From Octopus vulgaris (lineage: Eukaryota): a DNA stretch of 64,000 nt. The position numbers were made by a program, and so were the translations under genes. The notes beneath the pieces were generated by a model. It ran no database searches and was not told the origin of the DNA. It worked only from the letters and a program-made list of their open reading frames with translations. The stretch lies in assembly GCA_951406725.2 (NCBI GenBank), contig OX597819.1:56544001-56608000 (forward strand), read 5' to 3'. Positions 26,122-59,956 of this stretch are shown here, in pieces. Numbering within the stretch: the first letter of the stretch is position 1; every line of letters starts with the position of its first letter.

Positions 26122-26997
26122 TGCTTAGCTGTATTTCGCCTGTCGCTACGTTCTGAGTTCAAACCCCTTCGAGGTCGATGAAATAACCATAAGTCGAACA
26201 TTGGGGTCGATGTAATCGATCATCCCCTCTCCCAAAATTGGCAAAATTTGAAACCATTATTAAAAAGGAACGTTAGCACGCCGGGCGAAATGCGTTGCCG
26301 TATCTCGTCTGCCGTTACGTTCTCAGTTCAAATTTCGCCGAGGTCGACTTTGCCTTTCATTCTTTCGGGGTCGATAAATTAAGTACCAGTTACGCACTGG
26401 GGTCAATGTAATCGACTTAATCTGTCTGGTATTTCGTCTGCCGCTACGTTATGAGTTCAAATTCCGCTGAGGTCGACTTTGCCTTTCATCATTTCGGAGT
26501 TGATAAATTAAGCACTAGTTGCGTCCTGGGGTCGATCTAATCGACTGGACCGCTCCCTCAAAATTTTGTGCCTTGTGCCTTGAGTAGAAAGGAATATCAT
26601 TATTAAGGCGGCAAGCTGGCAGAATCGTTAGCATGCCGGAAAAAATGCTTAGCGGCATTTCACCTATTGCTACGTTCTGAGTTGTAATTCCGCTTTCGGG
26701 GTCGATAAATTAAGTACCAGTTGCGTAGTGGGGTCGATCTTATCGACTGGACCCTCTCCCCAAAAATTTTTGGCCTTTTGCCTTGAGTAGAGAAGAAGCG
26801 TTAGGACAGCGGGCATAATGCAGAGTGTCATTTCGTCTGTCTTTACGTTTTGAGATCAAATTCCGCCGATGCCGTTTTGCCTTTGATCCTTTTGGAGTCG
26901 ATAAAAAAGTACCAGTTGAGTACTGAGGTCGATGTAATTCATTCCCTCCCACCCTTCCCAGAACTTTCTGGCCTTGTGCCAATATTTGAAACCAATA
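26122..26997 (+). mobile_element. Head-to-tail cluster of about 5 SINE family B units
   Basis: The tttcg..tacgtt.t.agttcaaa..gaggtcga..gggtcgat.taatcgac core recurs at ~26135, 26305, 26432, 26660 and 26832. Confidence 0.85.
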
Positions 26998-27214
26998 TTA
27001 CAATTGCTAACGTTTTTGACGATAATTGTTTCAAATTTCTGCAGAAGCTCTTGGCAGCAGGTGTATTATTGGTATATTAAATTAATTAATGTATCCACGT
27101 TCAGTATAGTATCACAGAAATAACAATCGACATCGTCGTCTTAGTGGTAGTAGTAGCGGCAGCATCTGTAAAAAATTACATCATGAATACGAGCAGGTGT
27201 TACAACAACAGCAA

Positions 27215-27566
27215 TATATAACATATATGTTAATTTTGAAAGAAAATCTGAAACTCCGCGCCTGCGCAGAGGATTTTCAAAAGTTATAACATATAAACAC
27301 GAGGCATGTTCTTTATCGCCTCGTGTCTATATGTGAGCCTTGGCCTCCTGCTGAAGAGGCAACACCAGTTGTAAATTAAAAATATTTTATTGTATTTACA
27401 TAAGATTGCCGAAACTATGCATAGTCCAGGAAAGATAGCGTAAATGCTTTCTATTTTTCATTCCCTTTCAGATTTGCAACTATTAGTGGCTTGGTGTTTT
27501 AACTGCTTTTTCTAGTGAGTCAGATGTCCTATTATGGTCATCTCTTATGTGTTTAAATGTACACTG

Positions 27567-27572
<6 letters not shown>
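27215..27572 (+). mobile_element. ~350-bp non-coding hammerhead-containing element (solo pLTR / retrozyme-like)
   Basis: Contains the intact hammerhead, an upstream 9-bp hairpin (27297-27326) and CTGCGCAG, and ends at (TA)n. Boundaries approximate. Confidence 0.6.
27346..27431 (+). ncRNA. Type I hammerhead ribozyme, intact
   Basis: Stem I UCCUG/CAGGA, core CUGAAGA, stem II GGCAA..UUGCC with inner UGUAAAU/AUUUACA, GAAA, palindromic stem III ACUA-UGCA-UAGU, GUC triplet (cut after 27426). Confidence 0.9.
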
Positions 27573-27612
<40 letters not shown>

Positions 27613-27758
27613 ATATGTATACATTAGTGAACTAATGATACAAAATCAGGACCTTATATTCATGTTATCATACAAACAAACACACGCACGCACACGTGAG
27701 TTTAGGCGAAAATACATATGACCTTCCCTCCCTCCCTCTCTCCCTCTCTCTCTCCCGC

Positions 27759-28616: not shown

Positions 28617-28678
28617 TAGATATAGATATATAGATATATATATATATAGATATAGATATATAGATATATATATATATA

Positions 28679-29336
28679 TGTGGTCAGGATGAAGGATTCA
28701 AGGATGCCAAAACAGCTCTTTCATGGAGAGTTAGCTAAAGGAGAACGACCTCCACATAAACCAAAAAAGAGGTATAAGAACTTGCTGAAGGCTTCCTTAA
28801 GAGTTGCTTGCATCTCTTCTGACACATGTGAGGGCATAGCTATTGATCGTAGCCGGTGGAGAAGGATTGTGCACGAAGGGACAGCTACTTTTGAGAAATT
28901 TCGAGTTGCACATGAGAAAGTAAGGAGATATATCAGGAAGGACATCGCTGTTACACTTCCAGATCGGAAGGGTCTTCCTATGATGCTGACATGCAGTCTC
29001 TGTGCAAGACCCTGCCTCAGTAAAGCTGGACTCAAGAGTCATCTTCGTAGTCATAAAGCAAGACAGATGAGTGACAGCCTGGCCACACACCATACTAATC
29101 ATATCTGTCAGGCATGTGGAAGAGAGTGTAATTCGGCAGGAGGACTTAAACGACATGCAAAGGTACATGAAGCCCAGTTACAACTACAGCCGGCTATTAC
29201 CGGTAAAGGTTTTAGCTGCCAATTCTGTACAAGACATTGTAGATCTCTAGCTGGGTTAAAAAGTCACATTCGATCACAGCACCACTAACAGTTAAGCTTC
29301 GTGCAATGGACTTACTCGATAACGAGGGGGCAGCCA

Positions 29337-38475: not shown

Positions 38476-39756
38476 CGAGGGGCGTTCAATAAGTAATGCT
38501 TCTGACCCACTTGCAGTTATTTTATCTAGCTGAAATTTTGCATGTACAATTATTTATATCTTTATAGATTAAGTGGCAAATTGCAGCTCTGAACTAATTT
38601 ACAGGTGTTTGAACTGAGTCAAGTGTGAAATGGAGCCTGTTGAGTGTCGAGCAGTGATCCGGTTTTTGTATTTGAAAGAACGCATACCACGGGAGACTTT
38701 TGATGAAATGAAAGTAACTTATGGTGATGATGCCCCATCATGTAACCTTGTAAAACGCTGGCATCGTGAATTGAAACATGGTCGGAACTCTGTGGAAACA
38801 GCTCCCAGATCTGGTCGCCCCCTTCTGCCATTGATGAGGCATCTGTCCGTCATGTTGAGGTTGCCATTTTGGAAGATCGACGCACAACTATTCGCCAAAT
38901 AGCCCATGAGGTCAAGATTAGTACCGGGTCTGTGGAAACTATCATTCATGACCATTTGCATATACAAAAGCTGCCTGCCAGATGGATTCGCAGGTTGCTC
39001 ACATCTTTCCAGAAGCAAGAACGTGACGATTGCTCGAGGATGAATTTGGAGATGTGCCAAGAAGATGAGTCAAAATTTTTCAAAAGACTGATTACACAGG
39101 ATGAAACCTGGGTCCATCACTATGATCCAGAGACCAAAGCCCAGTCAATGCAGTGGACACACCGTGACTCACCTCCTCCAAAGAAGGCAAGGGTGCAGCC
39201 CTCTGCTGGCAAGGTCATGCTCACAGTCTTCTGGGACCAGGACGGAGTAGTGATGACAGATTTCCTGGCAAATGGTGCCACAATTACAGGAGCCTATTAT
39301 GATTCACTTTTGAGGAAATTAAGAGAAGCTATCAAAATCAAGAGGCGGGGCAAGATCAGCAAAGGCATCCTCCTCTTGCAGGACAATTCTCCGGTTCACA
39401 ACTCGCGTGTCACCAGATCAGAAGCACAGGCGTGCAGCTATGAACTCATCTCCCATCCCCCTACTCTCCTGCCCTTGTACCCTCTGATTTTCACCTCTTC
39501 CCAGCCATGAAGTTGTTTTTGAAAGGAAAGCGTTTTCCAGATGATGCAGCCTTGATTTCTAAAGTCATGTCGTGGTTGGAGGACCAAGCTGGGGTCTTCT
39601 ACAAAAACGGTCTTCAGAGCTGCATCAAACGATGTGAGAAATGCTGCGTAACTCTGGGTGGTTCCTAGGTAGAAAAAGACTAATAACTGTGCCAAGTTTC
39701 GTTGCTCTACTGCTATGAGAAGTGGATCAGGGGCATTACTTATTGTTCGCCCCTCG
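38476..39756 (+). mobile_element. Full-length mariner (DD34D) transposon, inactive
   Basis: TIRs cgaggggcgttcaataagtaatgc..tgacccactt / aagtggatcaggggcattacttattgttcgcccctcg, TA on both sides, 1281 bp long. Confidence 0.95.
38630..39685 (+). pseudogene. Mariner transposase with at least two frameshifts
   Basis: HTH region ending PRSGRP, then ITQDETWVHHYDPE, KVMLTVFWD, LLQDNSPVH, and HPPYSPALVPSDFHLF across a frameshift. Confidence 0.92.
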
Positions 39757-43264: not shown

Positions 43265-43645
43265 TGTATAACAATATATCATAATGTATATTCTCCGATT
43301 TGAAGCGACAATTTTTAATTACAAACAAAAGCCCGAAAACTACATATTATTATGGTATATTATTATTCTACTTTGAGTCTTTCATAGTAGCTTTCTCTCC
43401 GCAACTTACAAACTCTTTCTAGTTTGTTTACAAATATTATATGTACTGTATATATATATGTATATATATATATATATAAACAAATCAAATTGCGATAAAA
43501 TAAAAATAATTATAATCGCTGGTATTACTAACACAAGCCATATATTTTTCATATATCAGTACATTAAGGCGAAATATGTGCTAGGAATACAGAAGCTTGA
43601 TAAATTAAGTGAAATGACGATAAAAACATTTACTAAACCGGTAAT

Positions 43646-43717
43646 TCTCAGACTGCAGTTTCTTTCTTTTCAGCAATAAAGATAATTTATTTGCTCAGGG
43701 AGAATTCTTCAGTGAGA
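43646..43717 (-). ncRNA. Type I hammerhead ribozyme (downstream copy)
   Basis: Minus strand UCUCA-CUGAAGA-[aUUCU..AGCA-a-AUAAA uuauc UUUAU-UGCU..AGAAa]-GAAAC-UGCA-GUC-UGAGA, with 5-bp stem I and palindromic ACUGCAGU stem III. Confidence 0.85.
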
Positions 43718-44041
43718 CCCTGTCTTTCTGGGATCCTAACTCACTAGAAGCATGTGCTTCTAATGATTTACTCTCCCTAACTAATCATAACACTGCGCAG
43801 ACTCCGAACGTCCCGACAAAACTAGGGAATTCTGGTATATCGCCTGGCGCTCGTAATTTATCGAGAAATATGTAAACAAATCAAATTGCGATAAAATAAA
43901 AATAATTATAATCGCTGGTATTACTAACACAAGCCATATATTTTTCATATATCAGTACATTAAGGCGAAATATGTGCTAGGAATACAGAAGCTTGATAAA
44001 TTAAGTGAAATGAAGATAAAAACATTTACTAAACCGGTAAT

Positions 44042-44113
44042 TCTCAGACTGCAGTTTCTTTCTTTTCAGCAATAAAGATAATTTATTTGCTCAGGGAGAA
44101 TTCTTCAGTGAGA
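44042..44113 (-). ncRNA. Type I hammerhead ribozyme (upstream copy)
   Basis: Identical to 43646-43717, offset by exactly 396 nt. Confidence 0.85.
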
Positions 44114-44166
44114 CCCTGTCTTTCTGGGATCCTAACTCACTAGAAGCATGTGCTTCTAATGATTTA

Positions 44167-44207
<41 letters not shown>

Positions 44208-53841: not shown

Positions 53842-53843
<2 letters not shown>

Positions 53844-54997
53844 GTATAGAAGGTGGTAGAGGCCTTATACAGCTGGAAAACTACTATAAAATAACCACCA
53901 TAGGACTGCAAAAATACCTACTTCAGAAGGAAGGAAAACTGATCCAGATAGCAGCAAAACACGAGCAAAACAAAAAACTGTTCTCAGTATTTAAGGAAGC
54001 TGACAAATACAAACAAGAAATCATACCACCTAATAAACACAAAGAAGAAGAAGAAGATGATGAAGAAACAACAAAAGCTATAAAACAAATGAAATCCAAA
54101 CTAAAAATAGAACAGCAACGAGCCATGATAAAACGATGGCAAGAAAAACCCCTTCATGGTAAATACTGCACTAAACTAAACGCAAAAGAAATAGACAAAG
54201 AAAAATCCCAGCAATGGTTGAGAAGCTCAGGACTCAAAGCAGAAACAGAGGGATTTTTAATTGCAGCACAAGACCAAAGCCTCCCCACCAGAAATTACCA
54301 AAAACATGTAATGAAAAGAAATATTACAAGTAACTGCAGAATATGTGGAGATGGACAAGAAACAATAAATCATATTATCTCTAGCTGCCCAGTCCTGGCT
54401 AAGAAGGAATATATTCACAGACATGACAGAGTTGGAACCTACATACATTGGAAGCTATGCCAACATTATGGAATAACAACAGAAAAAAGATGGTATAGGC
54501 ACACACCAGAAAAGGTCACAGAAAACGAGAAAGCAACCATACTCTGGGATATGCCGATACACACAGATAGAGAAATTAAGGCCAACAGACCAGATATAGT
54601 TGTCAGAGATCATGAAGAAAAAAATGCTTTCTAATTGATGTATCAATACCGGCAGATGACAACGTGTCTCTAAAAGAAATGGAGAAACTCTCAAAATACA
54701 AAGACCTGGAAATAGAGGTAACTAGAATGTGGAACCTGAAAACAGAAACAATTCCTATCATAGTAGGTGCATTAGGCATGATAAAAAAATATTCAGACAA
54801 ATACATAACAAAAACACCAGGACTTACAAACACATATAACATACAGAAAATTGCACTACTAGGCACTGCACACATCCTACGCAGAACACTTTCCATACAA
54901 TAACCATCAGAGCATCACAACAAATCACAGCACATACCCAAGGCACACAGAGCTGTGCTCGGTAGTGAAGTGAAAGCACGCTATAAAAATAAAACTA

Positions 54998-55001
<4 letters not shown>
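53842..55001 (+). mobile_element. 5'-truncated R4/Dong-like LINE inserted in (AAT)n
   Basis: EGGRGLIQLE, WQEKPLHGKY, WLRSSGLKAETEGFLIAAQDQ, CRICG..ETINHIISSC (CCHC), RHD, NRPDIVV..LIDVSIP..KLSKYKDL (RLE). (AAT)n on both sides. One frameshift in an A-run near 54620. Confidence 0.93.
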
Positions 55002-55031
<30 letters not shown>

Positions 55032-55905
55032 GCCCTTCAAAATAAGTTAAGAAATTTACAAATTTACATATCTACAGTTTTCAAACATACATTCGTTCAG
55101 CTTTAAAAACTTTAATACCCACAATTGCCTCAGTAAACATCCTTTTTTTTTTCTTCTCTCTAAAAACATCACGCTTTTCTTTTTGTGGACTTACAAAACC
55201 GTAAAACTTTCTATGAAAATCTGACTTTTCTTTGCTTCCTCCCTGAATATTCAAATATAAATGTAAACATATATTTTCATTGCAAAAACACACCTGTTCT
55301 CCTAACTGGACATACAAACATATATAGAAAAGTCAACTTCAACCTCCACAATATTACCTTACACGAAATATAGAAACAGTTTTTATTGCAATAACACAAA
55401 CGCACATGGGAAAATAAATAATAATGATGCTAAGATTCTCTCTGGTCGAACACAACTTCTCTATTCACAAACAATACAGAACAGCCCTTCCTTAATTTTT
55501 CTTAAGTCTAGTAGTAGCAGACATTTGAACTTTTTTTGACCTAAAAAAAATAATAAAAAATAAATAAATAAACATCACTGATGATGGTGATGATGGTGAT
55601 GATGATAATAATGATAGTAATAGTGCTGATAATCTATCTATCTATCTACACACACACACACACTCACAGAGTTCAGCCAACACAAACCTCACCTCGGCTC
55701 TTTAGATGTTAACCAAATATGAAAGTATTATTTGACAGGCAAGAATTCTGGCGTTGAAGACAGCCAGCCAGCCAACCACCCAGCCAGCCAACCACCCAGC
55801 CAGCCAACGAGACAGGCAGACACTACTGTGATGGTGATAATGATAAAAAAAACCAAAAATAACAATAATAAGATACTGCTGTGACTACACATAAAACAAT
55901 ATCAT

Positions 55906-55940
<35 letters not shown>

Positions 55941-56006
55941 GTGATGATAGTAGTTGTGGCGATAATGATAATAGTGATAATAATGGTGATGATAATAACA
56001 ATAATA

Positions 56007-59000
56007 AGCCGACTACGGCTGCTATAATGGTACGATTATAATTGTAACGGCAATGATGGCCGTCTCCCCACGAGTCAATCAAAGCTCAAAAATGATAATA
56101 TTATCGTAGCACCAAAATGTTTTTGGAAACTAAAAGGAAAACTAAATCAGTATACCAAATCGCTTGTCATATGGTTAATCTGGAAGCGCGTCCCCCAGGG
56201 AAGAGCCAGCCTGGGATCGAAAAGTCATCAACTGGCACAAACTCTTCTCCGAATACGGACATGGATGGTCACTTGAACGGGAAATTCCCCAACTCGAGCC
56301 CTCCAAGTTCACCACCACAACCACCACAGAAAGAAAAATGTAAGCGGAACAAATGGACCCGAGAAGAGTATAAAGAAGTAATATACGCTTATTACTATGC
56401 ATTAGGTAGGCCATCTCAAGAGAGACACACCTTACAGTTTATGGAGAACACGGAATCAAGACAGTAGGCCCTATTTGGACGAGAACAAATTGGCAAATGT
56501 GAGGAGGGATATCCTTAGAAATAACAGACTCACAGACAGTGAAATAAGCGCGATCAAGCACGCAACGGAAAATAAGACACAAAGGAAATGAAGAATCAGA
56601 TGAACAGTATAGCCCGCCACGAGGCTTAATTGAAAGACTGCCATCTGACCAAAGTACGCAAAGGCCTGAAGATACAAGAAATTCTATTGAACCTGTTAAA
56701 GATAGCCAGGAAAATGATAAAACAACAGTAACTAAAGATCTCGCATTTGCTGAAAAACACAGAGAGTCTATGGCAGAAATGAGGCAGAAAATCCTGAATA
56801 CGCTTGAAGTTGTAAGACATACAAGTATGAATGATAGAGAACCACTTCATAAATTCTCAAATACAAACCAAAATAAAAACAAATCCAAATTGGCAACTAT
56901 GTAACAAATGAAATAATACAAGAATTAAAACCTGATTTTACTGAGTTAAATGAAGTTATTTACGCTTCTGCTAGGGCAATTGAAACCAGCTGTATGCCCC
57001 CGAAAAAACAAAGAAAACCAAACCTGGGAAGAAACCAAACCTGGAGAAGTAAAATTGAAAAAGAAATTGAATTTATGAGAGGGGAAATATCAATATTAAA
57101 TGAGCTAATATGTGGAAATGATTAAGATCCAGAACAGGAAGAAAGATGAAGAGAAAATTTGGATCCCCACCAAGAGAAGAACTGATATCAATAAAAGAAA
57201 CGCTGAAACAAAAAGTCCAAGCAAAAGCCCAAAGAATACGAAGATTTGAGAAGAGAAACAAGTTTTACAAGCAAAATAAGCTGTTCACATCCAATGCCAA
57301 AAAATTCTACAGAGAAATAGGGAAGGAGAAAGTAACCGTTAAAGACCCCCCTCCCATGGAAGAAGTTCAAAACTTTTGGAAAAGGATTTGGAGTGACAAG
57401 AAGACATACAACACAAATGCAGACTGGATTATACAAACTGAAGGATCCTACCAAAATTTACAACAAGCATGGGAAGACATCACAATAGCAGACCTAAGAA
57501 AGGCACTTACGAAGGCCAATAATTGGAAATCCCCCGGTAAAGATAGGGTGCCGAATTTCTGGCTCGCATCGCTCCCATGTGCACGCGGTAAGCTAGTTCA
57601 GCTGCTCAATGGAATTATGAGAGACCCAAAGAAAACATCTGAATGGTTAGCAAGTGGTATTACTTACCTACTCCCAAAGAATAACGAAACCAACCTTCCA
57701 AAAAACTATCGGCCTATAACCTGTCTATCCACCACGTATAAAATCCTAACATCTATCCTGTCGGAGAAAACATATGCATTCATGGAGAAGAACAATATTT
57801 TCCCCATTGAACAAAAAGGGTGCCGCCGAGGCCCATACGGATGCAAAGATCAACTGCTAATTAATCGTATGATCCTTGAGAACTGTCACAACAAGCGCAG
57901 AAATCTCAGCTCCGCATGGATTGACTATAAAAAGGCCTTCGACAGTATACCGCATCCATGGATCTTGAGATCGCTGGACATCTTCAAAATTTCCCCTGTG
58001 ATTTCAAGCTTCCTGAAGCACAATATGTCGTTGTGGAATACGAATCTCCAATTATACCACTCTAATGGAGTACTTGCCTCAGAAAATATAAACATCAACT
58101 GTGGAATTTTTCAAGGTGACTCACTTTCACCTTTAATACTCTGCATAGCCCTAATACCCCTTACAAGTGAATTAAACAGAACAGGGTATGGGTATAAAAT
58201 TGCCAATAAAAAATAAGCCATCTATTTTATATGGATGACTTAAAACTCTATGGTAAAGACAATAATGAACTTGAAGGCCTATTGCGCACTGTGAAAGCAT
58301 TCAGCGATGACATCGGGATGGAGTTTGGGCTTGAGAAGTGTGTCAAGGCCACTTTCCAGAAAGGGAAAGTGAAGACCACAAATTCAGTCGTGTTAGATGT
58401 TGACACAGTCATAAGAGAGCTTGAGCAAGAACAAACATACAAATATTTAGGGATAAATGAAGGCTCTGGTATTCAGCATGCAAGCATGAAAGAGAAGATC
58501 AGGAAGGAATGTTATAGGAGAGTTCGTGCAGACCTGAAATCTGAACTAAATGCAGGTAACAAGGTGTTAGCTATAAATTCCTTAGCAGTTCCAGTTGTTA
58601 CTTATAGCTATAATGTGTTGAACTGGAATATGAGTGAAGTAAAGAATATAGACAGGAAAATACGCAAGCTGCTGAGTTGTAATAGGATGCACCACCCAAA
58701 GGCAGACGTAGATCGTCTTTACCTTCCCAGAGCCCAAGGAGGTCGAGGCCTGATCCAATTTGAACTAGCTTACAAAACAACCACGATTGGACTGGCCAAA
58801 TATCTTGAAATAATGAATGATTGGATGCTAAAGCTCGTGGAAAATCACGAGAGACGAAAGAAGCTTCATTCTATCATAAAGGAAAGCAAAAAATTTGCTA
58901 TTGATCTCGTGCAGGATACCCAAACTGAACAACCCGAGGGAAGTACGGCAACTATTGTTGCAAAGAAGGTGAAAATAATGGCAACGAAAAAAGCGCACGA

Positions 59001-59956
59001 GCAATTGGCTGATAGGTGGGAGGAGAAACCTCTGCTCGACAAATATGTGGCCCGTAGCAAACAAGCTGATGTTGACCAGAAGCAAACCCATCAGTGGCTA
59101 CGGAGCTCAGGGCTAAAAGCAGAGAGCGAAGGTTTCATCCTGGCTGCTCAAGATCAAAGCCTATTAACCCGGAACTACCAGGCCAATGTAATGAAAAATG
59201 GAGTAGATCCAAAATGCCGATTCTGCAATGACATGATTGAGACAGTGGACCACCTAATCTCTGGATGTAAAGTCTTAGCACCAGTGGAGTATAAATTAAG
59301 ACATGACAGAGTTGGCCAATATCTACACTGGCTAATAAGTCGGCATTACAATATCAAAACTGCCAACAAGTGGTATAATCACCACCCTGAAGCTGTAACT
59401 GAAGGAGAAAATGTAACGATTCTGTGGGACTTTCCAGTACATACAGACCGAACCATCAAAGCCAATAAACAAGATATTGTTGTGAAAGACAAAAACAATA
59501 AAGTTTGCTTATTGATCGACATGAGCATCCCCTGTGATCATAATATCTCGGCGAAAGAGTTTGACAAGCTCAGAAAATATAAAGACCTGCTCATTGAAAT
59601 TGAGAAAATGTGGCATCTCAAGGCGGTTACAATACCAGTGATCGTAGGAGCACTAGGAATGATCAAGAAGGGAACCGAAAATTATATGAGAATGATCCCT
59701 GGCTTACCATCCCTGCAAGAAGTGTAAAAAATTGTCTTAACTGGTACATCACACGTATTGAGAAGAGCATTGTCGATGTGAGAGCTGTTACTGTCCATGT
59801 ATTTTAATTTAACCTTAAAAAAGAAAAAAAAAATGAACGAACTATTGAGTTTGGTTTAATGGCCTACCAATGTATACTATGAAATTCTTTGCCCTAGGAG
59901 TCGGGAAGACGCTCGGCAAGAAATGGAAGCAAATTTGAAAGAAGAAAAAAGAGAAA

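What the first reader, a model, noticed from the sequence alone, without database searches (positions are those of the whole stretch)
27346..27431. Second intact hammerhead, unrelated in sequence, in a solo ~350-bp element
Seen: all core nucleotides are present (CUGAAGA, GAAA, GUC), with stem I 5 bp, stem II 5 bp plus a 7-bp extension, and a 12-nt palindromic stem III (ACTATGCATAGT) with the same UGCA loop as the 43-44 kb motif. The flanks do not align with the 396-nt unit, so this is a separate family. Inference: the 4-bp stem III may allow cleavage as a monomer. If the region is intronic, it could cut a host pre-mRNA on the plus strand.
Basis: partly seen in the sequence, partly recalled or inferred. 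Interest (0 to 1): 0.75.

Follow-up and report, generated by a model that had tools for sequence, protein, structure and literature searches.

The report
Old retrozyme copy carrying a hammerhead
The predicted self-cutting RNA motif is real but sits in one shortened, ageing copy of a protein-free repeat found at hundreds of places in this genome, a known kind of genomic parasite likely pasted in by Penelope-type jumping genes, and nothing found here points to a role for the host.

Summary
The type I hammerhead at 27346-27431 is exactly as described. It is not a solo element. It lies in a 5'-truncated 341-bp copy (27231-27571) of a ~478-nt non-coding, circularly permuted repeat unit: 914 genome matches to a 20-mer at up to 2 mismatches, control 0; mean identity between copies 88%. 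Copies show the Penelope-like (PLE) footprint: ragged 5' ends, 3' ends clustered ~140 and ~250 nt past the cut site, (TA)n after 78 of 100 ends, inverted partners at 27 of 70 loci, greater-than-unit runs at 16 of 70. A sister family (~70% identical) keeps helix II by five compensatory pair changes, so the fold was under selection. Verdict: a new, old family of non-LTR retrozyme, likely mobilised by Neptune-type PLEs present in the genome; no donor pLTR was found. Monomer cleavage by this copy is doubtful (fold 3.5 kcal/mol above the minimum). No host exon was found. The scan has already noted younger families of this kind on other DNA of this genome.

The parts
27231..27571 (+). 5'-truncated copy of the ~478-nt retrozyme unit (about unit positions 270-478 then 1-144, numbered from the cut site), with a private ~20-nt deletion near 27250
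   Evidence: a contig of run X1 spans 26976-27308 across the 5' junction
27290..27333 (+). Upstream hairpin of about 15 bp, kept in the family and the sister family; fold-back inversions in the sister family start here
   Evidence: sequence
27346..27431 (+). Type I hammerhead motif (stem I closes the ends)
27351..27357 (+). Core CUGAAGA (N7 = A; C or U in other copies)
27358..27410 (+). Long helix II: 5 bp, internal loop, 7 bp, AU-rich terminal loop
   Evidence: pair probabilities 0.77-0.95; compensatory changes in the sister family and a loop-only deletion in subfamily D
27411..27426 (+). GAAA, palindromic helix III (27414-27425) and GUC triplet; predicted cut 27426/27427
27427..27571 (+). 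144-nt stretch past the cut site, ending at the first of two preferred 3' end clusters (likely internal start of reverse transcription)
   Evidence: compared with PMC11167929
27439..27439 (+). Private C (G in the other copies shown) in the predicted distal helix I
   Evidence: alignment of 51 copies; folds
27567..27621 (.). (TA)n microsatellite, the likely insertion target; a TA-rich remnant also lies 5' of the element (about 27213-27228)

Best explanation
The motif is a type I hammerhead fold inside a truncated, ageing copy of a ~478-nt protein-free repeat (a non-LTR retrozyme) that was likely inserted into a TA microsatellite by the enzyme of a Penelope-like retrotransposon. Inferred cycle: tandem source copies were transcribed; hammerheads in successive units could cut out unit-length RNA, which may be circularised; a PLE protein nicked (TA)n DNA and began reverse transcription inside the RNA, ~140 or ~250 nt downstream of the cut site; it copied back across the cut site and stopped early, giving 5'-truncated copies, greater-than-unit copies and inverted pairs. 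Shown: the family, its unit, the ends, the target bias, selection on the fold, and PLEs in the same genome with the same end geometry. Inferred: cleavage, circles, which PLE did the copying. The template of this copy spans the cut site seamlessly, so it was either religated or uncut. This single-hammerhead copy cannot release a unit and is most likely a dead end.
For: 107 exact and 914 up-to-2-mismatch matches of a 20-mer, control 0; 1840 first-look candidates. Unit 478 nt, 36% GC, longest stop-free frame 64 codons, circular fold z -4.5, 0 of 40 shuffles. Of 70 distinct loci: 27 with an inverted partner, 16 longer than one unit, 4 with two same-strand hammerheads, 30 simple sub-unit monomers. 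Of 100 distinct 3' alignment ends, 33 lie at unit 130-149 and 41 at 240-269; 78 are followed by (TA)3+ against 381 of 2730 control windows. Sister family, 21 motifs: helix II pairs C-G>A-U (18), A-U>C-G (19), A-U>U-A (16), two more double changes in the extension, a different palindrome in helix III. Autonomous RT+GIY-YIG PLEs with a Neptune-type Cys linker and intact 781-aa frames are present, carry their own hammerhead-like motifs, and end in microsatellites 6-112 nt (19 copies) or 68-257 nt (20 of 21 copies) past them. These are the PLE features described in PMC8557442 and PMC11167929.
Against: No donor pLTR: the unit has no significant match in 56 GIY-YIG loci, and in 30 loci of a second PLE family the only match is a separate sister-family insertion; but only 150 of 6136 GIY-YIG candidates were scored. 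Within the family alone, core conservation is not significant (0 of 12 core columns variable against 55 of 291; P = 0.077; sample biased towards intact motifs). The unit is longer than the 170-400 nt of PMC7229834. Long tandem arrays were not seen (at most about 2.5 units). Circular RNA and cleavage are untested. One subfamily (14 of 14) has an A.A mismatch at the base of helix II and most sister-family motifs have U at core position 3, so fast cleavage may not have been needed.
Confidence: 0.8

Rival explanations
1. The copies are only the 5'-truncated ends (pLTR plus tail) of an autonomous PLE whose coding part is rare, decayed or was missed.
For: Most PLE hammerheads occur as single motifs from truncated copies (PMC4209133). 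End geometry equals that of autonomous PLEs here. One locus (L140) has a PLE coding fragment joined directly to the unit.
Against: In 16 of 70 loci the sequence runs on upstream into more of the same unit, never into an endonuclease end. Two copies 3.8 kb apart have no PLE frame between them. The L140 junction is in the middle of the coding region (about aa 613), not at its end, and is 1 of 70.
Confidence: 0.12
2. This copy has been co-opted or acts by accident to cut a host plus-strand pre-mRNA.
For: The motif is among the 17 of 51 copies that are fully intact by a strict test. Retrozyme copies often lie in introns in Xenopus (42-44%; preprint 10.64898/2026.07.22.740005).
Against: No host protein domain in 134 window ORFs of 62 aa or more (short exons would be missed). 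The copy is as diverged as its relatives (nearest neighbour 94.5%) and carries private lesions (deletion near 27250, C27439). The active fold is not favoured. One third of sampled copies are intact, so intactness needs no special cause. In the preprint 8 of 9 tested dimers did not cleave.
Confidence: 0.05
3. A SINE-like or satellite repeat moved by a LINE or by DNA recombination, with the hammerhead as a passenger.
For: LINE fragments and SINE-like repeats are abundant in the window.
Against: No poly(A) or single fixed 3' end; two internal end clusters, (TA)n targets and head-to-head inversions; copies are dispersed over most large contigs, not in arrays.
Confidence: 0.03

Closest known systems
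Metazoan non-LTR retrozymes (Cervera and de la Pena 2020, PMC7229834; mussel 350-390 bp repeats)
   Same: Non-coding low-GC unit with one type I hammerhead, head-to-tail copies, strongly self-paired predicted circle, coexistence with autonomous PLEs; mussel motifs also lack most classical loop 1-loop 2 nucleotides.
   Different: Unit 478 nt; mostly dispersed truncated or inverted copies, no long arrays seen; longer helix II and a 3-bp-plus-tetraloop palindromic helix III; old (88% mean identity); circles and cleavage not shown here.
Retrozymes as non-autonomous PLE derivatives (Li, Clavereau, Pollet 2026, bioRxiv 10.64898/2026.07.22.740005)
   Same: Monomer ('solo') copies, unit length within their 51-972 bp range, Neptune-type PLEs in the same genome.
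   Different: They found pLTR homology for 24 of 57 Xenopus families; none was found for this unit. They sampled no mollusc. Here the link rests on insertion structure.
PLE pLTR hammerheads and PLE tails (PMC4209133; PMC11167929; PMC8557442)
   Same: Palindromic helix III, optional extra nucleotide after A9 (subfamily B), 3' ends at internal sites past the ribozyme, AT-rich or (TA)n targets, partial tandems and inverted 5'-truncated copies.
   Different: No RT/GIY-YIG frame; helix III is longer than in minimal PLE motifs.

Membership tests
Type I hammerhead ribozyme | Core CUGANGA, GAAA and UH around a three-way junction | tested here: met
Type I hammerhead ribozyme | Helices I-III, stem I open; pairing kept by compensatory change in homologues | tested here: met
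   five double changes in helix II and its extension, second palindrome in helix III; stem I does not vary, so it is uninformative
Type I hammerhead ribozyme | Match to an Rfam hammerhead model | tested here: not met
   (long helix II may explain it; not checked)
Type I hammerhead ribozyme | Active fold favoured in this copy | tested here: inconclusive
   -14.9 against -18.4 kcal/mol; stem I probability 0.01; subfamily B copies 0.75-1.0; tertiary contacts are not modelled
Type I hammerhead ribozyme | Self-cleavage after the UH | not testable with these tools
   needs a transcription assay
Non-LTR retrozyme | Type I hammerhead once per unit in head-to-tail repeats | tested here: met
   4 of 70 loci with two same-strand motifs one unit apart; 16 of 70 longer than a unit
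Non-LTR retrozyme | Small, low-GC, non-coding unit | tested here: met
   478 nt, 36% GC, longest open frame 64 codons; above the 170-400 nt of PMC7229834, inside the 51-972 bp of the preprint
Non-LTR retrozyme | Expressed as unit-length linear and circular RNA | tested here: inconclusive
   family-like contigs in 4 of 4 presumed RNA runs, but contigs show no strand, ends or circles
Non-LTR retrozyme | Target-site duplication larger than 4 bp when present | tested here: inconclusive
   masked by (TA)n targets
Penelope-like element, non-autonomous | 5' truncation, partial tandems, inverted 5' copy | tested here: met
Penelope-like element, non-autonomous | 3' ends at discrete internal sites past the hammerhead; microsatellite targets | tested here: met
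   same geometry in two autonomous families
Penelope-like element, non-autonomous | Sequence homology to the pLTR of an autonomous PLE | tested here: not met
   none in 86 GIY-YIG/PLE loci; sample incomplete
Penelope-like element, autonomous | RT plus GIY-YIG reading frame between pLTRs | tested here: not met
Host-exapted intronic ribozyme | Lies in a transcribed host gene on the same strand | tested here: inconclusive
   no host domain in 134 ORFs
Host-exapted intronic ribozyme | Locus conserved across species | not testable with these tools
   no related genomes are held

The most novel reading that the evidence does not exclude
This lineage spread by Neptune-type PLE enzymes while tuning its ribozyme down: whole subfamilies fixed an A.A mismatch at the base of helix II, and the larger sister family fixed U at core position 3, so uncut or slowly cut RNA, not the circle, would be the true template. 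The L140 chimera (PLE coding fragment joined by 8-nt microhomology to the unit, with an inverted PLE end, TA at both sides) would be a template-switch scar that names the mobilising PLE family, which shares no sequence with the retrozyme.
Probability: 0.2. Interest if true: 0.55.

Novelty: new member of a known kind. Interest (0 to 1): 0.27.

Why it matters
It adds one more family, apparently in a cephalopod, to a known class of ribozyme-bearing genomic parasites. My five paper searches found no description of octopus retrozymes, only a count of 235 Rfam hammerhead hits in the giant squid genome (PMC6962438); unread supplements may list them. The use of the family is as a natural allelic series: subfamilies with intact, bulged, mismatched or U3 cores all amplified, which allows a direct test of whether hammerhead cutting is needed for PLE-driven copying, an open point in PMC11167929 and PMC8557442. 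The single copy in the window matters little.

Tried and rejected
Rfam scans: no hammerhead hit. Pair of copies 3.8 kb apart on C13 as a possible pLTR-ORF-pLTR: no PLE frame between them. Donor search: unit against 86 GIY-YIG/PLE loci, nothing significant; PLE DNA of 11 queries against the family loci gave a direct junction only at L140, other PLE pieces merely share TA tracts. A suspected large stem I variant subfamily: 1 match only. Stem III variants among 99 pattern matches: single changes, no compensatory pair. Sequencing runs: no RNA holder listed; the unique flank 27042-27233 has no cover in three presumed RNA contig sets; neither blank is evidence. Depth on the unit is concentrated downstream of the cut and partly comes from the sister family, so it says nothing on circles. 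Host exons: 134 of the 158 filtered ORFs of 62 aa or more were scanned (24 left out, mostly overlapping frames of transposons); only zinc-finger, mariner and RT domains were hit. Relationship to the 396-nt unit: not significant. Earlier notes by sequence and near this place: none. The supplement of PMC7229834, the preprint's supplements and the text of Lunse et al. (PMC5785218) were not seen; they may list cephalopod motifs.

Full report
Observation. It is the only hit of a type I descriptor in the window; 0 of 20 shuffled windows reach its level. Rfam does not detect it. It has no significant similarity to the 396-nt unit at 43-44 kb, whose minus-strand motif shares the UGCA loop and the long helix II layout.

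It is a repeat family. The window lies at G000:C6:56544001-56608000 of a 2.8-Gb assembly. A 20-mer of the motif has 107 exact matches and 914 at up to two mismatches, with 0 for the reversed control; DNA searches give 1840 and 1977 first-look candidates. Alignment shows that sequence past the 3' end of this copy leads back into its 5' part: the unit is ~478 nt and circularly permuted. It is 36% GC, has no frame over 64 codons, and as a circle folds at z -4.5 against 40 approximate shuffles. The window copy is 27231-27571, 5'-truncated, with a private ~20-nt deletion; a contig of an independent run bridges its 5' junction. Among 51 distinct hammerhead-spanning copies mean identity is 87.7%, the maximum 96.2%, and this copy's nearest neighbour 94.5%: the sampled family is old.

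Insertion footprint. Of 91 fetched loci, 70 are distinct: 27 have an inverted partner within 150 nt, 16 run longer than one unit, 4 hold two same-strand hammerheads, 30 are simple sub-unit monomers like this one. 5' ends are ragged. Of 100 distinct 3' alignment ends, 33 fall at unit 130-149 and 41 at 240-269 after the cut site; 78 are followed by (TA)3+ against 14% of 2730 flank windows. About 7 of the 100 are alignment breaks inside the unit and count as misses, and one of the three queries favoured long-tailed copies, so the ratio of the two clusters is biased. Partial tandems, inverted 5'-truncated copies, tails and microsatellite targets are the PLE features given in PMC8557442 (passages); PMC11167929 (parts 1-2 of 4) shows that a PLE enzyme nicks AT-rich DNA, starts at two internal sites of the RNA, and does not need hammerhead cutting in vitro.

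The genome has the machinery. A GIY-YIG search gave 6136 candidates, 150 scored, many in 781-aa frames. One such frame has RVT_1 and GIY-YIG domains and a C-x4-C-x2-C linker, the motif that PMC8557442 gives for Neptune and Nematis; no tree was built. These elements have direct and inverted terminal repeats, a U3-A8 minimal hammerhead, and end in microsatellites 6-112 nt past it; a second family ends 68-257 nt past its hammerhead-like motif. The unit matches none of their pLTRs in 86 loci, so descent from a given PLE is not shown. One locus of 70 (L140) joins a coding fragment of the second family directly to unit position 339 through an 8-nt microhomology, with an inverted end of the same PLE to the left and TA at both sides. 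A template switch or a later deletion between neighbouring insertions would both explain it.

Was the fold selected? Within the family, differences avoid the core (0 of 12 core columns variable against 55 of 291 overall), but P = 0.077 and the sample favours intact motifs. Subfamilies differ at tolerated places: N7, an extra base after A9 (24 copies), an 11-nt deletion confined to the helix II loop (5 copies). The stronger evidence is a sister family at ~70% identity (3819 first-look candidates): in 21 motifs three of five helix II pairs and two extension pairs change on both sides, and helix III is a different palindrome. Against fast catalysis: 14 of 14 subfamily C motifs and 12 of 21 sister motifs have A.A at the base of helix II, and 18 of 21 sister motifs have U at core position 3. 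That such changes slow hammerheads is my recollection, not tested.

This copy. It is one of 17 of 51 copies fully intact by a strict test. Yet the hammerhead conformation is predicted 3.5 kcal/mol above the minimum, with stem I probability 0.01 and helix II 0.77-0.95 (z 0.12), while subfamily B copies form stem I at 0.75-1.0 with a distal helix that this copy loses through C27439. With one hammerhead it can neither form a cis dimer nor release a unit. PMC7229834 (12 passages and section 14) reports monomer cleavage for coral and mussel motifs; the preprint 10.64898/2026.07.22.740005 (parts 1-3 of 5) found cleavage in 1 of 9 Xenopus dimers; PMC4209133 (parts 1-2 of 4) and PMC6765202 (passages) describe palindromic helix III and dimer cleavage. 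Monomer activity is therefore possible but unproven. No host domain was found in 134 window ORFs, so an intronic position is unknown. RNA data were uninformative: family-like contigs occur in 4 of 4 presumed RNA runs but show no strand, end or circle.

Mechanism and verdict. Shown: hammerhead fold, repeat unit, PLE-type ends and targets, PLEs in the genome. Inferred: transcription of tandem sources, cleavage, circles, copying in trans by a Neptune-type enzyme. Because the copy crosses the cut site without a seam, its template was religated or uncut; the data do not tell which. It works like, and meets the testable criteria of, a non-LTR retrozyme; homology to a PLE pLTR was tested and not found. 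Five paper searches found no account of octopus retrozymes beyond a count of Rfam hits in giant squid (PMC6962438, passages); supplements not seen may hold one. The scan's own notes describe younger 360-, 485- and 495-nt families of the same kind in this genome; none matched this sequence and I did not check them. New member of a known kind; interest 0.27.

Noticed in passing
window 43471-44170 (minus strand motifs near 43640-43720 and 44036-44116): 396-nt partial tandem (297 of 300 positions identical between units) with a type I hammerhead of the same long-helix-II layout and an A.A mismatch at the base of helix II; a younger, separate retrozyme-like family.
   Followed up: partly
L185-L214 (e.g. 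G000:C19:580956-581556): Sister family, ~70% identical to this unit, about twice as many first-look candidates, mostly U3 core, often head-to-head inversions starting at the upstream hairpin (the query favoured such copies).
   Followed up: partly
L140 / L183 (G000:C3:111.339 Mb): PLE coding fragment joined to the retrozyme unit by 8-nt microhomology, with an inverted PLE 3' end; possible template-switch chimera.
   Followed up: partly
L091-L096: Young Neptune-like PLE family with intact 781-aa RT+GIY-YIG frames, 456-504-bp pLTRs and a U3-A8 minimal hammerhead.
   Followed up: partly
L064, L068, L069, L079, L108, L110, L121: At least five further distinct type I hammerhead motifs with palindromic helix III near GIY-YIG hits.
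   Followed up: no
window 26300-27000: Several nested copies of a very abundant SINE-like repeat (129-nt tandem at 26300-26546) just upstream of the element.
   Followed up: no
window 53843-59727: Broken non-LTR retrotransposon frames with RVT_1 and zf-RVT domains; mariner fragments at 38618-39507; a C2H2 zinc-finger frame at 28656-29288 that looks like a LINE C-terminus (recalled).
   Followed up: no
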